Positions 7,918 to 50,217 of a stretch of 64,000 bases of DNA are shown here, piece after piece. The stretch is taken from NCBI GenBank assembly GCA_030141605.1, contig JAQGDQ010000511.1, positions 1-64,000 of the forward strand, read 5' to 3'. Position 1 is the stretch's first letter, and every line of letters starts with the position of its first letter. Below the pieces are notes generated by a model that was given only the letters and a program-made list of their open reading frames with translations, was not told where the DNA came from and did not search any database. This stretch comes from Tubiluchus corallicola. Lineage: Eukaryota > Animalia > Priapulida. The position numbers and the translations under genes were made by a program.

Positions 7918-31508
<23,591 letters not shown>

Positions 31509-37444: not shown

Positions 37445-37966
37445 TTGGACTAACACATATGACAGATGTAACAGGAGTAGCTAATAGATATCTAATAGAT
37501 TGTATCTAACAGATATTTAATATAGTATGAATCTCTATATCGTTTTCTGATATTTATATATCTACCAACAAACATGTGAAGATCTCAAAAAACATCTGAT
37601 AACCTTGTTTCCATTTGGACTAACACATATAACAGATGTAACAGGAGTAGCTAATAGATATCTAATAGACTATATCTGACTGATATTTAATAGACTATCA
37701 ATTTCTATATCGTTTTCTGATACATTTCTGAAATTTATATATCTACCAACTAACAAGTGACGATCTCAAAAAACATCTGATAACCTTGTCTCCATTTGGA
37801 CTAACACATATAACAGATGTAACAGGAGTAGCTAATAGATATCTAATAGACTATATCTAACAGATATTTAATATACTATGAATTTCTATATCGTTTTATG
37901 ATATTTATATATCTACCAACTAACAAGTGAAGATCTCAAAAAACATCTGATAACCTTGTTTCCATT
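37445..37966. repeat. Triplicated ~170-180-bp unit spanning the stop codon of the Cys-rich gene
   Basis: Three copies of ttggactaacacatat...catctgataaccttgtttccatt. Confidence 0.95.
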
Positions 37967-40900
37967 TTAAGGGAAAAATTTGGACACCTTGTGCCGAGAG
38001 GGGTGGATAAAATGTGTAATTGACGTTATAGTGTTGCGCAAAGAAAACTCCGCTTGTTTTACTGACCAGCTTGTCATCAGAGTTTTGTGACGGGGTTATC
38101 AGCTGGAACATGATCACGTTGTTCTTCAACTTGCTTCCTAAAGGTGGTTCACATTTGATTTTAGTCTTTGGTAATGGAAGATCAAGCAGACTCTGGGCGT
38201 CGACTCCATTACCGAAATATTTCTTATTAGTTTCTGTTAGACTGCCAAACCTACCCGAGAACTGATCGACTTTTTGCTCGTAGGTTTTTCGATCTCTTAA
38301 CGTCTTATAGTTGATCATTTCCTTAAAGTCGAATCTCACGGAAGCGACGCGGACAGATTTTTGCTTTTTGAACTTGACGGTGATACTGATCGGGTGGGTA
38401 CTAATTTCTGTTATGGCTTTTAATTTGCTAATCATTTTAGCAGAAACGCCCTCTTTTCTCCATTCTTCCCATTTCAGCTTCTTTAAGACCTTGTAGTTTT
38501 CTTTATTGCCTTTTCCAATGAAGACAGCTTCTACACAATCCTTCTGACAGGACTTTGCTTGACATACGATCAGCTTGCAAGATGAAACAGGTCCAGTATT
38601 AACGGATACATTTGTGGGAGTTTTGTCAATCTTTCGAGTAATTTTCAAGAATGGGAGAGGTTCGGTCGTCACGGGAGTCGAAGATGTAGATAAATCCTTA
38701 AGTATCGATGTACTTGTAGACGTTGTCGTAGGCAGTGACGTCATTGTCGTTACACGTGTCACAGGTGTAGACACTTCCTTAAGCGTCGATGCAACTGCAG
38801 ATGTTGTTGTATAGGATGACGTCAATGTCGTTATAGGTCTCAATGTCGTTATAGGTGTCAATGTCGTTATAGATCTCAATGTCGTTATAGGTCTCAATGT
38901 CGTTATAGGTGACAATGTCGTTATAGGTGCCAGCGTCGTTATAGGTGTCAATGTTGACGATGTACAACTTGTTCTACAGTTTGACTTGCAGGTAGATTTA
39001 TTTGCACCTTTGCACTTATTCTCACACGCACAACGACATTCACTCTCTTTTTCGCAGTTTCTCACACAATTTTCTCTGCACGCTGCTGCGTCTTCTCCAA
39101 CACACGTAGCATTACACGACGATTGACACGCTTGAACTTTATCACGCATGCACACGAATTTATTACAGTAAGTTTCACAATCCTTTTCGCAAGTTGGATC
39201 GTGTATCTCTGGACACATACTCTTACACATGCAAATGCAGTCACTCGTACGGCGGCAGTAGTCCTTACAATCTGATGTACACTGAACCAGATCTCTTCCA
39301 GTACAAGTCTTTTCACATTCAGGCAAGCAGTCTATCTTACAATCGCACATTTTTTTGCAATTGCTCTCGCAGTTTTCTTCCTTCCACTTGCCAACTGTAC
39401 AAGTAGTTCTGCATTTGAGCTCGCATTGACTCGGAGGCGTGGGTGCAGGTTTCTTTGTCTTAGGTTTCAGTTCAGCAGATGGTGCCATAGTCGTTTCCTT
39501 CACAGGTGAACTTTCTGTTGATGAGTTTGGCATATCTGTTTGCCATTCAGGGTGTTCTGTTGTTTGCTCCTGTTGATTATCGGTTGTAAACGTTACCATG
39601 GTAATTTGTGTTGTGTATGATTTTGGATTGAATGCAGAAGTTGGTGTACTCGTTGAAACAGTTGTGGTCACACAATTCGTTTTACACGTCTCCTTGCAAA
39701 TAGATCTATCTGCTTCTGTGCAGTTACTCTCACAGCCACAACGACATAGACTTTCACTCTCACAATGTTCCTCACAGGTTTTGTTGCATGCACCTGGGTC
39801 TTCCACGGCACATTCAGCATTACACGAAGCCTGGCAAGCTTCATTTTTATCACGCATGCAAACAAACTGGTTACAGTAGGTTTCACAAGCTTTTTTGCAA
39901 GTTGATCCCTTTGTACGTGGGCACATCCTCTTGCACATACAAGTACAGTCACTTGTTTGTTCACAGTTTTCTCTACAGCTTGTTTTACACTGAACCTGGT
40001 TTCTTCCAGTACAACTCTGCTCACATGCAGGAAAGCAATTAATCTTACAATAGCAGAAATCTTTGCAATTATTCTCACAGTTTTGTTCTTTCCACTTACC
40101 ACCTGTACAACTATTTCTGCAATCAAGCTCGCACTCACTAAGAGGTACAGGGGTGGGCTTCGTTATTGTGGGCTTTACTTTAGCTGAAGTTTTTGTAGCT
40201 CTTTGTGTTTTGTCAGTTGCAGAAGTGGTTTGCACCGTGGTGGGTGTTTGTTTTGTTGCAGAAGTTGCTGTACTTGCAGGTGTCGCTGTGGTAATCTTTA
40301 CTGTTAAGCAATTTACTTTACACTTCTCCTTACAAACAGATACATCTTCATCCGTACACTCACTCTCGCAACCACAACGGCATTCACTTTCTCTCTTGCA
40401 GTATTCTGCACAATCACTTTTGCATGCTGCTGCGTTTTTTCCAGCACATTTAATGCTACATGAAGACTTGCATACCTGGTTATTATCGTGCACGCATGTG
40501 TAATTATCACAGTAAATTTGACAAACTTCCATACAGTTTGCTTCCTCTGTGCCTGGTGGGCACATACTCTTGCACATGCACGTACAATCACTTGTACGCT
40601 TACACTTCTCTCTACAGTCTAACTTGCACTGATATTGATTTACTCCAGTGCAACTTTGCTCACACGCTGGCACACAGTTAGCCTTACAATTGCAGAATGC
40701 TTTACAAGTATTCTCACAGTTTTGTATTCTCACATTCCACTTACCACCTGTACAACTTTTTCTACAATGAAGCTCGCATTCATTCAGCGGTGTGGGCTTC
40801 TTTGTTTTAAGATTTGGTTTAGCAGAAGTTGTTGTAGCTGCTTGTGTTGTGTAAGTGTTGGAAGTAGTTGCAGAAGTCGTTTGCACGGTGTCGGATTTCG

Positions 40901-43900
40901 TTTTCGTTGCAGAAGTTGCTGTACTTGAAGGTGCAGCTGTGGTTGTCACTAATACTGTGCAATTTACTTTACAATTCTCTTTGCAAATAGATACATCTTC
41001 ATCCATACACTCACTCTCACAGCCACAACGACATTCACTTTCGCTCTTGCAGTATTCTACACAATCACGTTTACATGCTGCCGTGTTTTTTCCAGTACAC
41101 TTAGCATTACACAGCAACTTGCACACCTCATTTTTATAATGCACACACGTGTAATTATCACAGTAAGTTTCACAATTATTCTCACAATTTGAATCTTCTA
41201 CACTTGGGCACATACTCTTGCAAATGTACACGCAATCACTTGTGCACTCACACTTTTTCTTACAGTTTGATTTGCACTGAACTAGACTTACTCCCGTGCA
41301 GTTCTCTTCACACGCTGGTAGGCAGTTAGTCTTGCAATCGCATATCTTTTTACAATTGTTTTCACAGTCTTGCTTTTGCAGTAAATCACCTGTGCAACTT
41401 TCTTTACAATCAGACTCGCATTCACTAGGAGGTAACACAGATAGAATCGTTGTGGTTGAAGTTGTTCTTGGTTTTTGTGTAGTTATAGAGCCTGTTCTGG
41501 GTGTTGCAGATGTGTTGTGTTTTGTAGCAGCTATCGTTGTGGTTGAAGGTGTTCTTGGTTTTTGTGTAGTTATAGAGCTTGTTCTGGGTGTTGCAGATGT
41601 GTTGTGTTTTGTAGCAGCTATCGTTGTGGTTGAAGGTGTTCTTGGTTTTTGTGCAGTTACAGAGCTTATTCTGGGTGTTGCAGATGTGTTGTGTTTTGTA
41701 GCAGCTATCGTTGTGGTTGAAAGCTTACAGCGTATTTTGCATGTGATCTTACAAGTAGCTTTACCTGCAACAGTGCACTCACTCTCGCACCCACAACGAC
41801 ATTCATTCTCCTTTTCACAGTTTTCTGCACACCTTCTTTTGCACACTGCTGAGTTTTTGCCAGTACATGTTGTTTTACACGAAGACAAACAAGCTTTGTT
41901 CCTATCAAGTTTGCACATATGTTTGTTGCACTTTGTTTCACAATCCTTCTCACAATTCCAATCTTTTGCAAGTGAACATTGGCTCTTGCACATGCACATA
42001 CAATCTCCTATGCGCTCACACTTTTTCCTGCAGTCTGACGTACACTCGACCCGGTTCTTTCCAGTACAAGTCTTTTCACATGCAGGCAAGCAGTTGAGTT
42101 TGCAAAGGCATATTTCTTTACAGTTATTTGTGCAGTTTTGCTGTTCCCACTTGCCACCTGCACATTTGTTTCTACATTCCACCTCACATTTACTTGGTAG
42201 AACGGTAATAATATTTGGCGTAGATTCACTAGTTTGTTTTTGTTGAATGATGGTTGTAAAAGTAGCTGCAGAAGTAGTTTGCATTGCGTCGGATTTTGAT
42301 TTAGTTGCAGAAGTTGTCGTGTTTATTGGTGCAGTTGCAGCCGTAACTGGTGTCGAGCAATTTGCTTTACACATCTCCTTACAAATAGATCTATCTGCCT
42401 CTGTGCAGTTACTCTCACAGCCACAACGACATAGACTTTCACTCTCACAATATTCCTCACAGGTTTTGTTGCATGCATCTGGGTCTTCTGCGGCACATTC
42501 AGCATTACACGAAGCCTGGCAAGCTTCGTTTTTATCATGCATGCAAACAAACTGATTACAGTAGGTTTCACAAGCTTTTTTGCAAGTTGATCCCTTTGTA
42601 CGTGGGCACATACTCTTGCACATACAAGTACAGTCACTTGTTTGTTCACAGTTTTCTTTACAGCTTGATTTACACTGAACCTGGTTTCTTCCAGTACAAC
42701 TCTGCTCACATGCAGGAAAGCAATTAATCTTACAATAGCAGAAATCTTTACAATTATTCTCACACTTTTGTTCTTTCCACTTACCACCTATACAACTATT
42801 TCTGCAATCAAGCTCGCACTCACTAAGAGGTACAGGGGTGGGCTTCGTTATTGTGGGCTTTACTTTAGCTGAAGTTTTTGTAGCTGTTTGTGTTGTGTCA
42901 ATTGTAGAAGTGGTTTGCACCGTGGTGGGTTTTTGTTTAGTTGCAGAAGTTGCTGTACTTGAAGGTGCAGCTGTGGTTGTCACTAATACTGTGCAATTTG
43001 CTTTACACTTCTCCTTACAAACAGATACATCTTCATCCATACACTCACTCTCACAACCACAACGACATTCACTTTCTCTCTTGCAGTATTCTGCACAATC
43101 ACTTTTACATGCTGCTGTGTTTTTTCCAGTACACTTAGCATTACACAGCAACTTGCACACCTCATTTTTGTAATGCACACACGTGTAATTATCACAGTAA
43201 GTTTCACAATCATTCTCACAGCTCGAATCTTCTACACTTGGGCACATACTCTTGCACATGCACGCACAGTCACTTGTACGTTCACACTTTTCTTTGCAAT
43301 CTAATTTACATTGAACTTTATTTACTCCCGTACAACTGTCTTCACACGTTGGTAAACAGTTCATTTTGCAATTGCATGCTTTTTTACAGTTATTTTCACA
43401 GTTTTGCTTTTGCAGTAAATCACCTGTACAACTATCTATACAATCGAGCTCACATTCACTAGGAGGTAATACGGTTAATGTCGTTGACGATGTTTTAGGC
43501 TTTTGTGTTGTTACAGAAGTTATTTTAATCATTGTTGAATTGTCAGATTTTGTAGTAGTTGCAGTGGTAGTTGACGGCTGACATTTTGTTTTACATGTAG
43601 TCTTACAAGTAGCTTTATCTGCATCCGTGCACACACTCTCGCACGCACAACGACATTCATTCTCCTTTTCACAATTTTCTGCACACCTTCTTTTGCACAC
43701 TGCCAAATTTTTGCCAGTACACCTTGCATCACACAAAGACAAGCATGGTTTATTGTTATCAAGTTTGCACATGTATTTCTCACACTTTGTTTCGCAATCT
43801 TTCTGACACTTCCACTCTTCCGTACCTGAACACTGATTCGTGCACATGCACACACAATCTCCTGTGCGCGCGCACGTTTCCGTGCAGTTTGACGTACACT

Positions 43901-44867
43901 CGTCCCGGTTTTTTCCAGTACACTTTTTTTCACATGCAGGCAAGCAGTTGAGTTTGCAATTGCAGATTTTCGTACAATTATTCTTGCAATTTTGCTGTTC
44001 CCCGCCCACACATCTACCTCTACATTTCACCTCACATTCACTTGGCAAAACAGTAGAAATACTTGGAATCGTTTCAGTTGTTTCAGTCTTTGTTGTGGTG
44101 CTAGAAATAGCTGTAATTTCTGGTGTAACTGTTTGCCCAACTATGGTTGTCGAAGCCACTGCAGGCTTTGATGTAGTCATTACAGATGTATCCGGTTTTG
44201 TTGCAGAACCCACCGTGGTTTGCTCTTCTACAGGTGGTTCTAGTGGATTCAGTGTTGGTATTGTTGGTATTCCAGTTTGTTGTTGAACGTCTGTTGTAGT
44301 CGTGATTTCACTAGTAGGAGTAATCGTAACTGTGACCGTAGATGATGCAGTAGTAACGTCAGGAAAACTTAGTGTCAAATCATCATCTGTTTGCTCTTGC
44401 AGACCTGCTTCAATTGGAGGAAGAAGCCCAGAAGAGGAAGGTTCCCCATCTGTTAACTTTAGTGATGTTGTTGGTTGTTCATCTGTAGATGGAGCTGTCT
44501 GGTCACTTGATGATGATCGTGTTGTAGCATATTCAATGTAAGGTATTCGTATGAAAATAGGTTTGGGCCAGCGGGCCCTCATTAGCGGATGAAAAATCTC
44601 TTTGTACACGCATTCTACGTGTACAGGAGGAATTAGACAAACCACGCCTAGTTTGTACACCAGTTGTTTTTCATAGACCTTGTATTCTAGCTTTAACTCA
44701 CCAGAAAATGTCCAAATTGGTGAATTTGGCACTTTACATTCATACACTGAGCCCGCGACTCTGTGTAAAAGACCTGATGTTAGGTTTTGCTTACTGTCTG
44801 ATAAAACATTCTGAATTATCCACATCATGATCTTGCATAATATTAACAACTTCATCTTCAACTTCAT
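37920..44867 (-). CDS. 2315-aa predicted secreted cysteine-rich repeat / mucin-like protein with C-terminal discoidin (F5/8 type C)-like region
   Basis: Uninterrupted 6.9-kb ORF. Basic/hydrophobic N-terminus MKLKMKLLILCKIMMWIIQNVLS. Eight CX3CX3C-rich modules separated by Thr/Ser/Pro linkers. C-terminus FYPPLSAQGVQIFPLKWKQGYQMFFEIFTC resembles the F5/8C terminal motif. Confidence 0.93.
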   Translation of the reverse strand: MKLKMKLLILCKIMMWIIQNVLSDSKQNLTSGLLHRVAGSVYECKVPNSPIWTFSGELKLEYKVYEKQLVYKLGVVCLIPPVHVECVYKEIFHPLMRARWPKPIFIRIPYIEYATTRSSSSDQTAPSTDEQPTTSLKLTDGEPSSSGLLPPIEAGLQEQTDDDLTLSFPDVTTASSTVTVTITPTSEITTTTDVQQQTGIPTIPTLNPLEPPVEEQTTVGSATKPDTSVMTTSKPAVASTTIVGQTVTPEITAISSTTTKTETTETIPSISTVLPSECEVKCRGRCVGGEQQNCKNNCTKICNCKLNCLPACEKKCTGKNRDECTSNCTETCARTGDCVCMCTNQCSGTEEWKCQKDCETKCEKYMCKLDNNKPCLSLCDARCTGKNLAVCKRRCAENCEKENECRCACESVCTDADKATCKTTCKTKCQPSTTTATTTKSDNSTMIKITSVTTQKPKTSSTTLTVLPPSECELDCIDSCTGDLLQKQNCENNCKKACNCKMNCLPTCEDSCTGVNKVQCKLDCKEKCERTSDCACMCKSMCPSVEDSSCENDCETYCDNYTCVHYKNEVCKLLCNAKCTGKNTAACKSDCAEYCKRESECRCGCESECMDEDVSVCKEKCKANCTVLVTTTAAPSSTATSATKQKPTTVQTTSTIDTTQTATKTSAKVKPTITKPTPVPLSECELDCRNSCIGGKWKEQKCENNCKDFCYCKINCFPACEQSCTGRNQVQCKSSCKENCEQTSDCTCMCKSMCPRTKGSTCKKACETYCNQFVCMHDKNEACQASCNAECAAEDPDACNKTCEEYCESESLCRCGCESNCTEADRSICKEMCKANCSTPVTAATAPINTTTSATKSKSDAMQTTSAATFTTIIQQKQTSESTPNIITVLPSKCEVECRNKCAGGKWEQQNCTNNCKEICLCKLNCLPACEKTCTGKNRVECTSDCRKKCERIGDCMCMCKSQCSLAKDWNCEKDCETKCNKHMCKLDRNKACLSSCKTTCTGKNSAVCKRRCAENCEKENECRCGCESECTVAGKATCKITCKIRCKLSTTTIAATKHNTSATPRISSVTAQKPRTPSTTTIAATKHNTSATPRTSSITTQKPRTPSTTTIAATKHNTSATPRTGSITTQKPRTTSTTTILSVLPPSECESDCKESCTGDLLQKQDCENNCKKICDCKTNCLPACEENCTGVSLVQCKSNCKKKCECTSDCVYICKSMCPSVEDSNCENNCETYCDNYTCVHYKNEVCKLLCNAKCTGKNTAACKRDCVEYCKSESECRCGCESECMDEDVSICKENCKVNCTVLVTTTAAPSSTATSATKTKSDTVQTTSATTSNTYTTQAATTTSAKPNLKTKKPTPLNECELHCRKSCTGGKWNVRIQNCENTCKAFCNCKANCVPACEQSCTGVNQYQCKLDCREKCKRTSDCTCMCKSMCPPGTEEANCMEVCQIYCDNYTCVHDNNQVCKSSCSIKCAGKNAAACKSDCAEYCKRESECRCGCESECTDEDVSVCKEKCKVNCLTVKITTATPASTATSATKQTPTTVQTTSATDKTQRATKTSAKVKPTITKPTPVPLSECELDCRNSCTGGKWKEQNCENNCKDFCYCKINCFPACEQSCTGRNQVQCKTSCRENCEQTSDCTCMCKRMCPRTKGSTCKKACETYCNQFVCMRDKNEACQASCNAECAVEDPGACNKTCEEHCESESLCRCGCESNCTEADRSICKETCKTNCVTTTVSTSTPTSAFNPKSYTTQITMVTFTTDNQQEQTTEHPEWQTDMPNSSTESSPVKETTMAPSAELKPKTKKPAPTPPSQCELKCRTTCTVGKWKEENCESNCKKMCDCKIDCLPECEKTCTGRDLVQCTSDCKDYCRRTSDCICMCKSMCPEIHDPTCEKDCETYCNKFVCMRDKVQACQSSCNATCVGEDAAACRENCVRNCEKESECRCACENKCKGANKSTCKSNCRTSCTSSTLTPITTLAPITTLSPITTLRPITTLRSITTLTPITTLRPITTLTSSYTTTSAVASTLKEVSTPVTRVTTMTSLPTTTSTSTSILKDLSTSSTPVTTEPLPFLKITRKIDKTPTNVSVNTGPVSSCKLIVCQAKSCQKDCVEAVFIGKGNKENYKVLKKLKWEEWRKEGVSAKMISKLKAITEISTHPISITVKFKKQKSVRVASVRFDFKEMINYKTLRDRKTYEQKVDQFSGRFGSLTETNKKYFGNGVDAQSLLDLPLPKTKIKCEPPLGSKLKNNVIMFQLITPSQNSDDKLVSKTSGVFFAQHYNVNYTFYPPLSAQGVQIFPLKWKQGYQMFFEIFTC

Positions 44868-45532
44868 TCAAGAGAATACTTTAGAGACTTTCAAACATTT
44901 ACTGTACACGTTTAACTGACTGTCATAAAATGCAAATAATTATATTGTACAGTAGCTACGTTTCCGTTAAGAATGATTAAGTGTACAATCACCATCATTC
45001 CTTTTTCATGCTTTCATTGTTATCTATGACACGTATGCGAAAAAAACTGATATTGAAAACAATGATTGTGATTTCATATTTCAAGGTTCGAAAGTCTGTA
45101 ATCCAAATTTCGTCACGTGAAAACTCCATTGTTATGTTGATATTCGTGATGTCATTGTTAGGTAGGCCTACTACCGTTCCTACCTTTTGGCTTTCAATGT
45201 CACGTTTTCCAAAACAATGCAGGTCGGAGTGCTTACAGCGAATCAAAAAGCAGAATGCTTTGTTTTCAAATATTTCATGGACCACATGTAAACATTGTTA
45301 TTCGGTATTTTAAAAATGCGATATTCATTTGGTAGGGACTGTGAAAACAAAAAACGAAATGCTTGAGGTAAGGCCTAATTTCATTACCGTCTCCATTTTA
45401 CATTCAGGCCTTAATGTTTTCTAGCTATATGATATATACAACATACTCTATTGTAATAAAAAAACGTATACAAAACGTACAGCAATGAAATTACGATACA
45501 TGTAAATAATTGTTTATGTATAGTCTCTGGAC

Positions 45533-45616
45533 TAACCTAGCCCCTGGGGGGGGGGGGGGGGCAAGCCAACCCAACTTAGTGCCGGTCCCAAGCCCGGATA
45601 AATAGGGAGGGTTAGG
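45533..45616 (+). ncRNA. Twister ribozyme (P1-type) at the 5' end of an RTE-derived element
   Basis: Reads T^AA CCTA GCC-[P3 insert]-GCCGGTCCCAAGCCCGGATAAA-TAGG-GAGGG. The core at 45581-45602 matches the rice twister core as I recall it; P2 CCTA/TAGG pairs; both pseudoknots (CCC:GGG, GC:GC) are possible. Confidence 0.85.
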
Positions 45617-46032
45617 GTCAGGAAGGGCATCCGCCTGTAAAAACTGCGCCAAAACTTTCTATGAATGAGTCGGTGAGACTTAAAGGGAAAGTCCACAAAG
45701 AAGTGGTCAGACCCTCTCTAATCTATGGGCTGGAAGCAGCTTCTCTAAAGAAGACCGAAGAGAAGAAAATGGGTGTGGTGGAGATGAGGATGTTGAGATG
45801 AATGGTGGGAATAACAAGAAGGGATAAATTAGAAATAATAATATCAGAGGAACAGTAAAAGTAGTGGAAGCCTCGCAAGATTGCGATGGTATGGACACCT
45901 GAAAAGAAGAGTCGGTGAAGATCATGTGGGAAGGGAAGACATAAATGAAGAGATGGTCAACAACAGGAATGCGTGGAGAAGACTCATTCACAACGGCGAC
46001 CCTGCATAGGGAAAAGCTGGGAAGAAGAAGAA
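45534..46032 (+). mobile_element. Bipartite non-autonomous RTE-derived retroelement (RTE 5' UTR fused to RTE ORF 3' end)
   Basis: 16-bp TSD gta[t/c]agtctctggact at 45518-45533 and 46033-46048; (GAA)n tail; 45676-46032 is clearly homologous to the RTE copy at 16833-17330. Confidence 0.88.
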
Positions 46033-46233
46033 GTACAGTCTCTGGACTGATGTTTAACAATAGTGTCAAATTGTTCGTAAATTTCTCATGTTTAAAAACA
46101 TTAATGATGCTATTGTTAGTAAATATGTAAAAACACAAGAAAATTTACATTTCAGAAAAGTTTATATGCAATTAAAACACAGAATCAAACAGTCTAACGT
46201 GTAATATCCAATTTTATGAAACAAGTGATATAT

Positions 46234-49046: not shown

Positions 49047-50217
49047 AGAAAAACTTGGCACTGAAATTTGCATAAACACATTAAAGGAGATCATTGACTA
49101 CTACATTAGTCGTGATAGCTCTGTTCACATTGTTTTTATCGACGCATCAAAGGCATTTGATAGGGTTAATTTCTTCAAGCTTTTTCTTAAACTCACAAAG
49201 ACTTCAATCCCGAATATTGTAATCCGCTTGCTCACATTTTATTACACGCAGCAAGGCATGTCTGTCAGGTGGGGACATAGTCAGTCTACAACTTTTAATA
49301 TTGGAAATGGTGTACGCCAAGGTGGCAAGATGTCACCTTTTCTTTTTAATTTTTATTTTAAAGATCTAAGTGTTAAGCTTTCATCCACCCAACTTGGTTG
49401 CAATGTGTCGAACATGGTTATGAACCACCTGATGTACGCTGACGATGTTTGTTTGTTAGCAACAACGATTACGGCCCTACAGCAACTACTAGACGTGTAT
49501 AAATTGTATGCTGAACAGTATGACATAAAAATTAATGTAGCTAAAACTAAACTTATGTCTGTTAATTCAAACATTATGAGAAATTTTATGTTTGGTAACA
49601 TCAAACTAGATAATAATGTTTTACGTACCTGTGATAATGAAAAATATTTGGGACATATTATTTCAAATGATAACCGTGATGACCTTGACATTATTAATCA
49701 AAGATCCCTATACTATTGTCGTGCAAACCAACTTATGAGAAAATTCAGCAATTGTTCTGTTGATGTTAAAAGATATCTATTTAATGCTTACTGTAATACA
49801 TTCTATTGCATGTCTACTTGGAGACATTTTAATAATGGTAATATCTTAAAACTTAAAATTGCGCACAATGTGTCAAAAAGATTATTTTTCGGATATGCAT
49901 ATGATTACAGTGCTCGTGAGATGAGTGTTGAAATTCACGTGATGTATTTTGAGGTATTACGTAGAAAATCTGTGTTAAGTTTAATGAAAAGATTTGATAC
50001 TAGTGATAATTTAATGTGCCAGAAAATTTTAGTAAGCGATGCCAAATTTACATCGCACATAAGACAGCAATGGTGGAGACTATTATTGTAATTTTCATGT
50101 TTAACTAAGTTTGTGTGAGATTTGTTTGTAGTGGTTTTTTGTTTTTATAATGTTGTATGTTGTATATATGTAATTTATATTATGAACTTATGTTTGAAAT
50201 AAAGAATTAAATCAAAT

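What the first reader, a model, noticed from the sequence alone, without database searches (positions are those of the whole stretch)
45518..46048. Twister-ribozyme-headed ~500-bp non-autonomous retroelement whose 5' end sits exactly at the ribozyme cleavage site
Seen: a 16-bp TSD brackets 45534-46032. The element starts AACCTAGCC, carries GCCGGTCCCAAGCCCGGATAAA-TAGG-GAGGG, then joins at ~45676 directly to the last part of an RTE ORF and a (GAA)n tail, with no endonuclease or RT core. Established: this is the twister core, twister cleaves U^A leaving AAC at the start of the 3' product, and RTE LINEs are known to carry 5' self-cleaving ribozymes. The TSD ends in T at 45533 and the element begins at the A+1 position, so the inserted RNA looks like a full-length ribozyme cleavage product. 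Inference: a promoter-less SINE-like parasite (a twister analogue of hammerhead retrozymes) that cuts itself out of host transcripts and borrows the RT of the RTE family represented at 16833-17330.
Basis: partly seen in the sequence, partly recalled or inferred. Interest (0 to 1): 0.85.

Follow-up and report, generated by a model that had tools for sequence, protein, structure and literature searches.

The report
Twister-headed mini RTE with paired ends
This 499-base insert is one of many copies of a shortened jumping gene that keeps only the two ends of a larger retrotransposon; it starts exactly at the cut site of a predicted self-cutting RNA that likely made its front end, and its two ends are predicted to base-pair, which may explain why such elements keep both ends.

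Summary
A 15/16 target-site duplication flanks 45534-46032. The element begins at the twister scissile A. Rfam twister-P1 scores 49.5 bits (E 3e-10, below the 67.2 cut-off); the core and both pseudoknots are intact and only P1 is broken. Public contigs show a multi-copy family: divergent contigs from two samples cross the junction, summed depth is flat across it, and nothing is shared upstream of the cleavage site. The head is the RTE's own 5' UTR, since the same twister and box precede full endonuclease-RT ORFs elsewhere. It is therefore a bipartite, internally deleted non-autonomous RTE, like R2 SIDEs, and not a retrozyme. Twister-headed RTEs and bipartite RTEs are each published; I found no paper on the combination. 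This scan noted the same kind on other DNA (e1-7942443, e1-8158600). One addition: the last ten retained 5' bases are complementary to a segment before the 3' stem-loop. Relatives show different-sequence pairing at the same two places (permutation 5-16 of 362,880, windows chosen after viewing; one held-out element ranks first; one relative fails). Cleavage, transcription source, mobilisation and the pairing are untested.

The parts
45518..45533 (+). Left target-site duplication; its last base is the U before the scissile bond and it supplies the mismatched 5' strand of P1
   Evidence: empty-site paralog contigs
45534..45611 (+). Twister-P1 ribozyme as the 3' cleavage product: A45534, P2 45536-39/45603-06, pseudoknot 45540-41/45592-93, P3 with a G16 run 45546-61, P4 45582-84/45595-97, G45585, pseudoknot 45587-89/45609-11
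   Evidence: Rfam RF03160 49.5 bits, E 3.2e-10; pair check; the catalytic roles of the A and G are recalled, cleavage untested
45617..45643 (+). Conserved RTE 5'-UTR box after the ribozyme, also found before full APE-RT ORFs
   Evidence: L002, L003, L004; L006, L013, L021
45662..45671 (+). 5' arm over the parent's likely start codon (ATG 45665); last bases of the retained 5' part; complementary to 45981-45990
   Evidence: inverted pair I5; X4 loose end after 45671
45672..45674 (+). Internal-deletion junction shared by other copies
   Evidence: bridging contigs with 6, 8 and 7 other letters in X1, X2, X4 (records 3, 11, 20); flat depth
45675..46020 (+). Remnant of the RTE ORF end and 3' UTR, with 16-nt and 90-nt deletions, a 1-nt deletion and a stop
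   Evidence: alignment to 16833-17293; other contigs cross both larger deletions (records 13, 14, 15, 24)
45981..45990 (+). 3' arm, just upstream of the terminal stem-loop
45994..46019 (+). Predicted 3' terminal stem-loop, likely RT recognition element
   Evidence: fold; near-identity to the RTE copy; function inferred
46021..46032 (+). (GAA)4 tail
   Evidence: loose ends behind 46033 in 30 X1 contigs with agreement 0.45, which may include full RTE copies
46033..46048 (+). Right target-site duplication
16833..17330 (-). 5'-truncated copy of the related coding RTE, with its own 18-bp TSD (16815-16832, 17331-17348); it represents the likely partner lineage

Best explanation
This is one copy of a multi-copy, internally deleted RTE retrotransposon that keeps its parent's twister-headed 5' end and its 3' end; the ribozyme likely cuts the RNA free at the element's first base, a resident full-length RTE likely copies it into new sites, and the two ends are predicted to base-pair. 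Steps: (1) A full-length RTE lost nearly all its ORF between its second codon and the ORF's last 150 or so codons, plus two smaller pieces. The structure is shown; the order of events is not. (2) A copy is transcribed, likely by read-through from host DNA (inferred; no RNA data). (3) The twister folds with whatever flank the insertion site provides as P1 and cleaves before A45534 (predicted from the intact core and from Perere-3 work). (4) The RTE endonuclease-RT binds the 3' stem-loop and GAA tail and inserts the RNA by target-primed reverse transcription. The TSD and the multi-copy state are shown; the donor is inferred. (5) The start-codon arm pairs with the arm before the 3' stem-loop, so that both ends form one cis-acting structure (predicted from covarying complementarity; less certain than the rest).
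For: TSD beyond chance and empty-site paralogs. Twister match with intact core; P1 defects are tolerated in tested natural twisters (PMC11662667, passages) and in Perere-3 variants (PMC8501958, section 19). No depth above the single-locus level upstream of bin 45529-36 in X1 (177.6), and none at all in X4; X4 has 3 contigs with unrelated flanks ending at 45533 and 3 more whose loose part ends in the element's first bases. Of 26 pieces listed out of 9,244, three cross the junction with at least 31 bases on each side and differ from this copy at 6, 8 and 7 places; they come from two samples. X1 summed depth is 0.74-0.90 million at 45657-45688, and only 95 of 2,179 X1 contigs are partly laid. The same twister plus box precedes RTE ORFs in L002, L003, L004 and L013. 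After setting aside this copy's private changes, the last 92 bases differ from the RTE copy at 1 position against 20 of 262 further in (Fisher p 0.02). End pairing.
Against: The Rfam score is below the family cut-off. Cleavage was not assayed. Folded without pseudoknots, this copy's ribozyme region prefers a rival helix between its first bases and 45609-45616. No full-length copy with both TSDs other than this one was seen, because no assembly is held and contigs break inside the repeat. Depth falls steeply upstream of 45590; I read this as break-up at the G run, but 5' truncation would look the same. The full-length head is seen in only 2 X4 contigs. The 16833 copy is not the direct parent: 14 of 21 differences are synonymous against 26% expected, so the two are separated by coding-lineage evolution. 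In this copy the long-range helix has a predicted probability of about 0.25 against 0.75 for a local hairpin at the junction.
Confidence: 0.8

Rival explanations
1. The family is real, but the ribozyme is a passenger. Copies are transcribed from an internal Pol II promoter in the RTE 5' end, and the 5' edge is simply inherited from the parent.
For: Kojima states that bipartite LINEs are very likely Pol II transcripts and that LINE 5' extremes drive transcription (PMC5786205, section 23). P1 is broken here and a rival helix is predicted. A young family would keep an intact core without selection.
Against: The start coincides to the base with the scissile A. No position of the core shows another letter in 2% or more of the laid depth (table 3: 4 positions listed, none in 45581-45611). 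Perere-3 variants with mismatched P1 cleave in vitro and in reporter cells (PMC8501958, sections 19 and 22).
Confidence: 0.13
2. A one-off decayed or deleted copy of an ordinary RTE, not a family.
For: It has three deletions, a 1-nt deletion and a stop. Only one copy lies in the window. Few junction-crossing contigs were listed.
Against: Divergent contigs from two samples cross the main junction and both smaller deletions. Depth is flat over the junction and no junction loose end is among the six best supported in X1 (81 more rows were not shown).
Confidence: 0.04
3. A twister analogue of hammerhead retrozymes, propagating through unit-length or circular RNA cut out by ribozymes at both ends.
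For: It is small, non-coding, ribozyme-bearing and flanked by a TSD.
Against: There is a single ribozyme, no LTR or tandem unit, and a LINE-derived 3' end and tail. Retrozymes need ribozymes bounding the monomer and are circularised (PMC7761336, passages). No joint from the 3' end back to the head is among the 15 listed of 20.
Confidence: 0.03

Closest known systems
Perere-3 RTE with twister 'T-variant' ribozymes, Schistosoma mansoni (PMC8501958; abstract, section 18 part 1 of 2, sections 19 and 22, passages)
   Same: Twister at the 5' end of an RTE; TSD directly against the AA of the cleavage site; TSD supplies the 5' strand of P1; short tandem 3' repeat; no fixed target site reported.
   Different: Perere-3 is described as autonomous, with an APE-RT ORF. 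The parts read describe no internally deleted family, though 18.6% of 813 variants had no conserved domain downstream. PMC7761336 (passage) also states that truncated twisters are conserved at RTE 5' ends, as unpublished work.
Bipartite ORF-absent non-autonomous RTEs, such as RTE-N1_Lch, RTE-N2_Lch, Bov-A, WALLSI3 (PMC5786205, sections 3 and 23, passages; PMC7245038, passages)
   Same: Only the 5' and 3' parts of the parent LINE are kept; the true 5' end is retained; no small-RNA head; a few hundred bases long.
   Different: The word twister does not occur in PMC5786205. That paper leaves open why RTE, Ingi and R2 make such elements, and the parts read propose no pairing between the two ends.
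R2 SIDEs of Drosophila (PMC3414825, abstract) and NARTc/RIME of trypanosomes (named in PMC5786205 section 3; PMC4035085 seen as a search listing only)
   Same: Same logic: a 5' self-cleaving ribozyme plus the LINE 3' end, copied in trans by target-primed reverse transcription.
   Different: Those use HDV-like ribozymes and R2 or Ingi-clade partners; R2 SIDEs are confined to 28S rRNA genes. This one uses a twister and an RTE.
Hammerhead retrozymes (PMC7761336, passages; PMC4918200, search listing only)
   Same: Small, non-coding, ribozyme-bearing, dependent on another element's RT.
   Different: Retrozymes have ribozymes in LTRs or tandem repeats, make circular RNA and are not deletion products of their partner. 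None of that is seen here.

Membership tests
Twister-P1 ribozyme (Rfam RF03160) | Covariance-model score at or above the gathering cut-off | tested here: not met
   49.5 bits against 67.2, E 3.2e-10, whole model matched; P1 is mismatched. All seven twister matches in relatives also fall below (31.9-63.9 bits).
Twister-P1 ribozyme (Rfam RF03160) | P2, P4, both pseudoknots and the conserved A and G | tested here: met
   4/4, 3/3, 2/2 and 3/3 pairs; A45534 and G45585 present
Twister-P1 ribozyme (Rfam RF03160) | P1 stem | tested here: not met
   1 of 4 pairs; reported as dispensable (PMC11662667, passages)
Twister-P1 ribozyme (Rfam RF03160) | Self-cleavage leaving a 5'-OH AA end | not testable with these tools
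   needs a cleavage assay
Bipartite non-autonomous RTE | 5' part derives from the 5' end of an autonomous RTE | tested here: met
   same twister and box before APE-RT ORFs in L002-L004 and L013; two X4 contigs continue from this head into other sequence that reads like an RTE ORF start (that reading is by eye)
Bipartite non-autonomous RTE | 3' part derives from the 3' end of the LINE, with tail and TSD | tested here: met
Bipartite non-autonomous RTE | No endonuclease or RT coding capacity | tested here: met
   the remnant lies beyond the RT domain of L004 and has stops
Bipartite non-autonomous RTE | Multiple copies share the internal junction | tested here: met
   copy number not measured
Bipartite non-autonomous RTE | Partner belongs to the RTE clade by RT phylogeny | not tested
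   no tree with named references was built; the assignment rests on the single APE-RT ORF of a relative, the atlas name 'Endonuclease-reverse transcriptase' and recalled RTE motifs
Bipartite non-autonomous RTE | Mobilised in trans by the partner's RT | not testable with these tools
   inferred from the near-identical 3' end
SINE (Pol III, small-RNA head) | tRNA, 5S or 7SL head with A and B boxes | tested here: not met
   no tRNA; no box by a crude recalled pattern; no such Rfam hit
Retrozyme | Ribozymes at both ends of the unit (LTRs or tandem repeats) | tested here: not met
   one core in the window; LINE-type 3' end
Retrozyme | Circular RNA intermediate | not testable with these tools
   no RNA holder listed

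The most novel reading that the evidence does not exclude
RTE retrotransposon RNAs close into a panhandle. A short arm over the start codon pairs with an arm just before the 3' stem-loop, and this two-ended structure, with the 5' end trimmed by a twister, is what the RTE protein recognises. That would explain why RTEs keep spawning elements with both ends, why this family's deletion stops at the last base of the arm, and why the shortest relatives reduce the whole ORF to a hairpin loop of a few bases.
Probability: 0.5. Interest if true: 0.72.

Novelty: new variant of a known kind. Interest (0 to 1): 0.45.

Why it matters
As a family it is a modest addition: it joins two published facts, twister-processed RTE 5' ends and bipartite RTE derivatives, in one short abundant element. 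Because each insertion gives the ribozyme a new P1 partner, the family is a natural library for asking whether flank-dependent cleavage decides which copies spread. The end-pairing signal matters more if it holds. It offers a testable answer to a question left open in PMC5786205 (why RTEs give rise to bipartite elements and why RTE-driven SINEs keep an internal piece of the 5' UTR). It also bears on RTE-based gene-insertion templates, which carry both cognate UTRs (PMC13708176, passages).

Tried and rejected
No assembly is held, so the copy census was replaced by contig laying; summed contig depth is not a copy number. No RNA holder was listed, so expression is open. Run X5 held only two unrelated twister cores. 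Viral contigs gave 0 matches to the box pattern. My first TSD control counted self-hits (4 of 5,000) and was redone without them. Plain folding does not recover the pseudoknotted twister (z 0.51 for the head region) and was not used as support. The first end-pairing test, with 45-base windows, was not significant by energy for any of 5 elements (55-275 of 1,000 shuffles as good); only this element's 10-bp match stood out (1 of 1,000). L001's apparent arm lay in its terminal hairpin and was set aside. TSD searches in L001-L005 gave no convincing duplication for any element. Pfam found no family for the 160-aa RTE fragment. Rejected readings: retrozyme, Pol III SINE, one-off deletion, and the 16833 copy as direct parent. 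Searches of earlier findings by sequence and in this genome gave nothing.

Full report
OBSERVATION. The sequence is as described. The repeats at 45518-45533 and 46033-46048 match at 15 of 16 bases; 0 of 5,000 random window stretches did as well. Two contigs of flank paralogs join the left flank to the right flank with the 16-mer region present once (tables 5 and 5c), which is what an empty site looks like. Rfam finds twister-P1 at 45529-45615 with 49.5 bits, E 3.2e-10, below the gathering score of 67.2; the whole window has no gathering-level hit. P2, P4 and both pseudoknots are fully paired and P1 has 1 of 4 pairs. The U-A-A of the cleavage site is at 45533-45535, so the duplication ends on the U and the element starts on the first A. 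The 3' part (45675-46032) aligns to the 5'-truncated RTE at 16833-17330 with deletions of 16 and 90 nt, a 1-nt deletion and a stop. It corresponds to residues 864 onward of a 1,019-aa relative whose RT domain is 589-829.

IS IT A FAMILY? No assembly is held, so I laid public contigs on the locus. X1 and X2 are one sample and may be the window's source; X4 is another sample and study, organism not on record. In X1 the summed contig depth is 177.6 on the left flank and about 0.7-0.9 million over most of the head, junction and body. The tool warns that this is no copy number, and overlapping contigs inflate it; hundreds to a few thousand copies is my rough inference. 2,179 X1 contigs lie on 240 bases, only 95 of them in part. 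Of the 26 pieces listed out of 9,244, three cross the junction with at least 31 bases on both sides (X1 record 3, X2 record 11, X4 record 20) and carry 6, 8 and 7 other letters; three more X1 pieces cross it with 28-30 bases on the left. Other divergent contigs cross the two smaller deletions (records 13, 14, 15, 24), while undeleted ends appear as loose ends at 45936 and 45939. The three deletions are therefore shared by several copies. This copy differs from the majority letter at 7 listed positions.

THE 5' EDGE. Depth above the single-locus level starts in bin 45529-45536 in both runs, with none upstream. In X4, three contigs with unrelated flanks end at 45533, and three more have loose parts ending in the element's first twelve bases, offset by a different G-run length. 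Depth drops steeply from about 45590 towards the 5' end. That is within one 31-base word of the G16 run, so I read it as contig break-up, but 5' truncation is not excluded.

WHERE THE HEAD COMES FROM. A pattern for the twister core plus the box behind it found 5 loci in metagenome contigs; all 5 match twister-P1. In L002, L003 and L004 an RTE-like ORF follows; L004 has one ORF with endonuclease and RT domains. L005 joins such a head directly to the end of the RT region, an independent deletion. The box alone found 17 loci in prokaryote genome records, which I take to be animal DNA binned with them (inference). They hold 17 distinct heads: three followed by RTE ORFs (L006, L013, L021), several very short two-ended elements, and a twister core in 2 of 17 (L013 and the roughly 150-base L019). 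In X4, two contigs leave this family's head after 45671 into sequence that by eye reads like an RTE ORF start from ATG 45665. The head is thus the parent's own 5' UTR plus two codons. The copy at 16833 is a relative, not the parent: 14 of 21 differences are synonymous against 26% expected (p 1e-4), while the last 92 bases are nearly identical. RTE-clade membership was not tested with a tree.

END PAIRING. The last ten retained 5' bases (45662-45671) are the exact complement of 45981-45990, just before the 3' stem-loop. With broad 45-base windows, energies were not significant in any of 5 elements; only this element's 10-bp match was rare in shuffles (1 of 1,000). I then fixed 20-base windows on two anchors, after looking at the sequences. 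Of 23 heads, 11 had both anchors; I dropped L012 (same family as L015) and L014 (anchor 1,353 bases away in unrelated DNA) and used 9. The 12 without a 3' anchor were left out. For L003 the 3' window comes from the RTE copy just upstream, not shown to be the same family. Cognate pairs beat mismatched pairs: 16, 5 and 7 of 362,880 permutations did as well on three scores, and 16, 5 and 7 of 40,320 without the window's element. By energy the cognate partner ranked first in 7 of 9 rows, second in one and eighth in one (L008, whose hairpin starts further in). Moving the 3' window 30-90 bases upstream weakened the pairing in all 4 long elements. L006, added after the windows were fixed, ranked first both ways, and 0 of 1,565 windows of its body paired as well. 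The arm sequences differ between elements, so the positions and not the letters are conserved. In the shortest elements the two arms close a hairpin with a loop of 4-6 bases. Against: the sample is small and its members are related; in this copy a local hairpin at the junction is predicted at 0.75 and the long-range helix at 0.25, though forcing the latter costs only 0.7 kcal/mol.

MECHANISM. Shown: insertion with TSD, two-ended structure, shared junctions, 5' edge at the cleavage site, intact ribozyme core. Inferred: read-through transcription, cleavage, copying in trans by the resident RTE. Predicted and least certain: the panhandle between the ends. Confidence 0.8 for the family and its route, about 0.5 for a functional panhandle.

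WHAT IS KNOWN. Twister variants at the 5' end of the RTE Perere-3, with the TSD against the cleavage site and forming P1, were shown to cleave (PMC8501958; abstract, section 18 part 1, sections 19 and 22, passages). A review states that truncated twisters are conserved at RTE 5' ends (PMC7761336, passages). Bipartite non-autonomous RTEs are common and usually keep the 5' end of the parent (PMC5786205, sections 3 and 23, passages; PMC7245038, passages). Ribozyme-headed deleted R2 elements are published (PMC3414825, abstract; PMC6765202, passages). P1 defects are tolerated (PMC11662667, passages). A 3' hairpin shared by RTEs and their SINEs is described (PMC6007223, passages). Judging by titles and abstract openings, searches listed no paper on a twister-headed non-autonomous RTE family, and searches none on pairing between RTE ends. 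The library lacks most subscription journals, I had no Repbase or Dfam, and I read no supplements; those of PMC8501958 and PMC5786205 may bear on both points. This scan noted the same kind on other DNA.

VERDICT. Real, and a new variant of a known kind: a twister-headed bipartite RTE derivative that works like an R2 SIDE. It is not a retrozyme and not a Pol III SINE. Interest 0.45, most of it from the end-pairing signal.

Noticed in passing
window 45529-45620: Without pseudoknots, the first bases of the element pair with 45609-45616 in an 8-bp helix that would exclude the active twister fold. By eye a 5-6 bp version exists in L002, L003 and L013. It may be a misfold, a post-cleavage switch or a by-product.
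   Followed up: partly
window 45573 and 45611-45613 (loose ends): Other twister-headed families exist in runs X1 and X4: one with a different P3 and others with a different box after the ribozyme.
   Followed up: no
window 45380-45533 and 46033-46133: The insertion site is itself a low-copy repeat; paralogs lack the insert.
   Followed up: partly
window 16410-16805 (-): DDE_3 transposase remnant; the truncated RTE at 16833-17330 lies right beside it.
   Followed up: partly
window 37920-44867 (-): A 2,315-codon stop-free frame with Cys-rich repeats and Thr-rich spacers, mucin-like by eye, about 670 bases from the element on the opposite strand.
   Followed up: no
window 7918-8397 (-) and 13654-13956 (-): Frames with an OAR-like motif and the end of a paired-type homeodomain, resembling a Dmbx-type gene (recalled; Pfam gave no hit for the second piece).
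   Followed up: partly
window 49069-50091 (+): Fragment of an unrelated LINE RT (25% identity to L004).
   Followed up: no
L019:416-560, L005:825-1332, L001:4460-4790: Independent twister-headed short elements in other DNA; L019 is about 150 bases with the two arms joined as a hairpin.
   Followed up: partly
L006-L022: Animal-type RTE elements and derived SINE-like repeats lie inside prokaryote genome records, several at contig ends, likely binning contamination; L014 and L017 have tRNA-like sequence upstream of the RTE box (by eye).
   Followed up: no
run X4 against X1: Head depth is about 60% of 3'-end depth in X1 but about 5% in X4, so the balance of short family and coding RTE seems to differ between the samples.
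   Followed up: no
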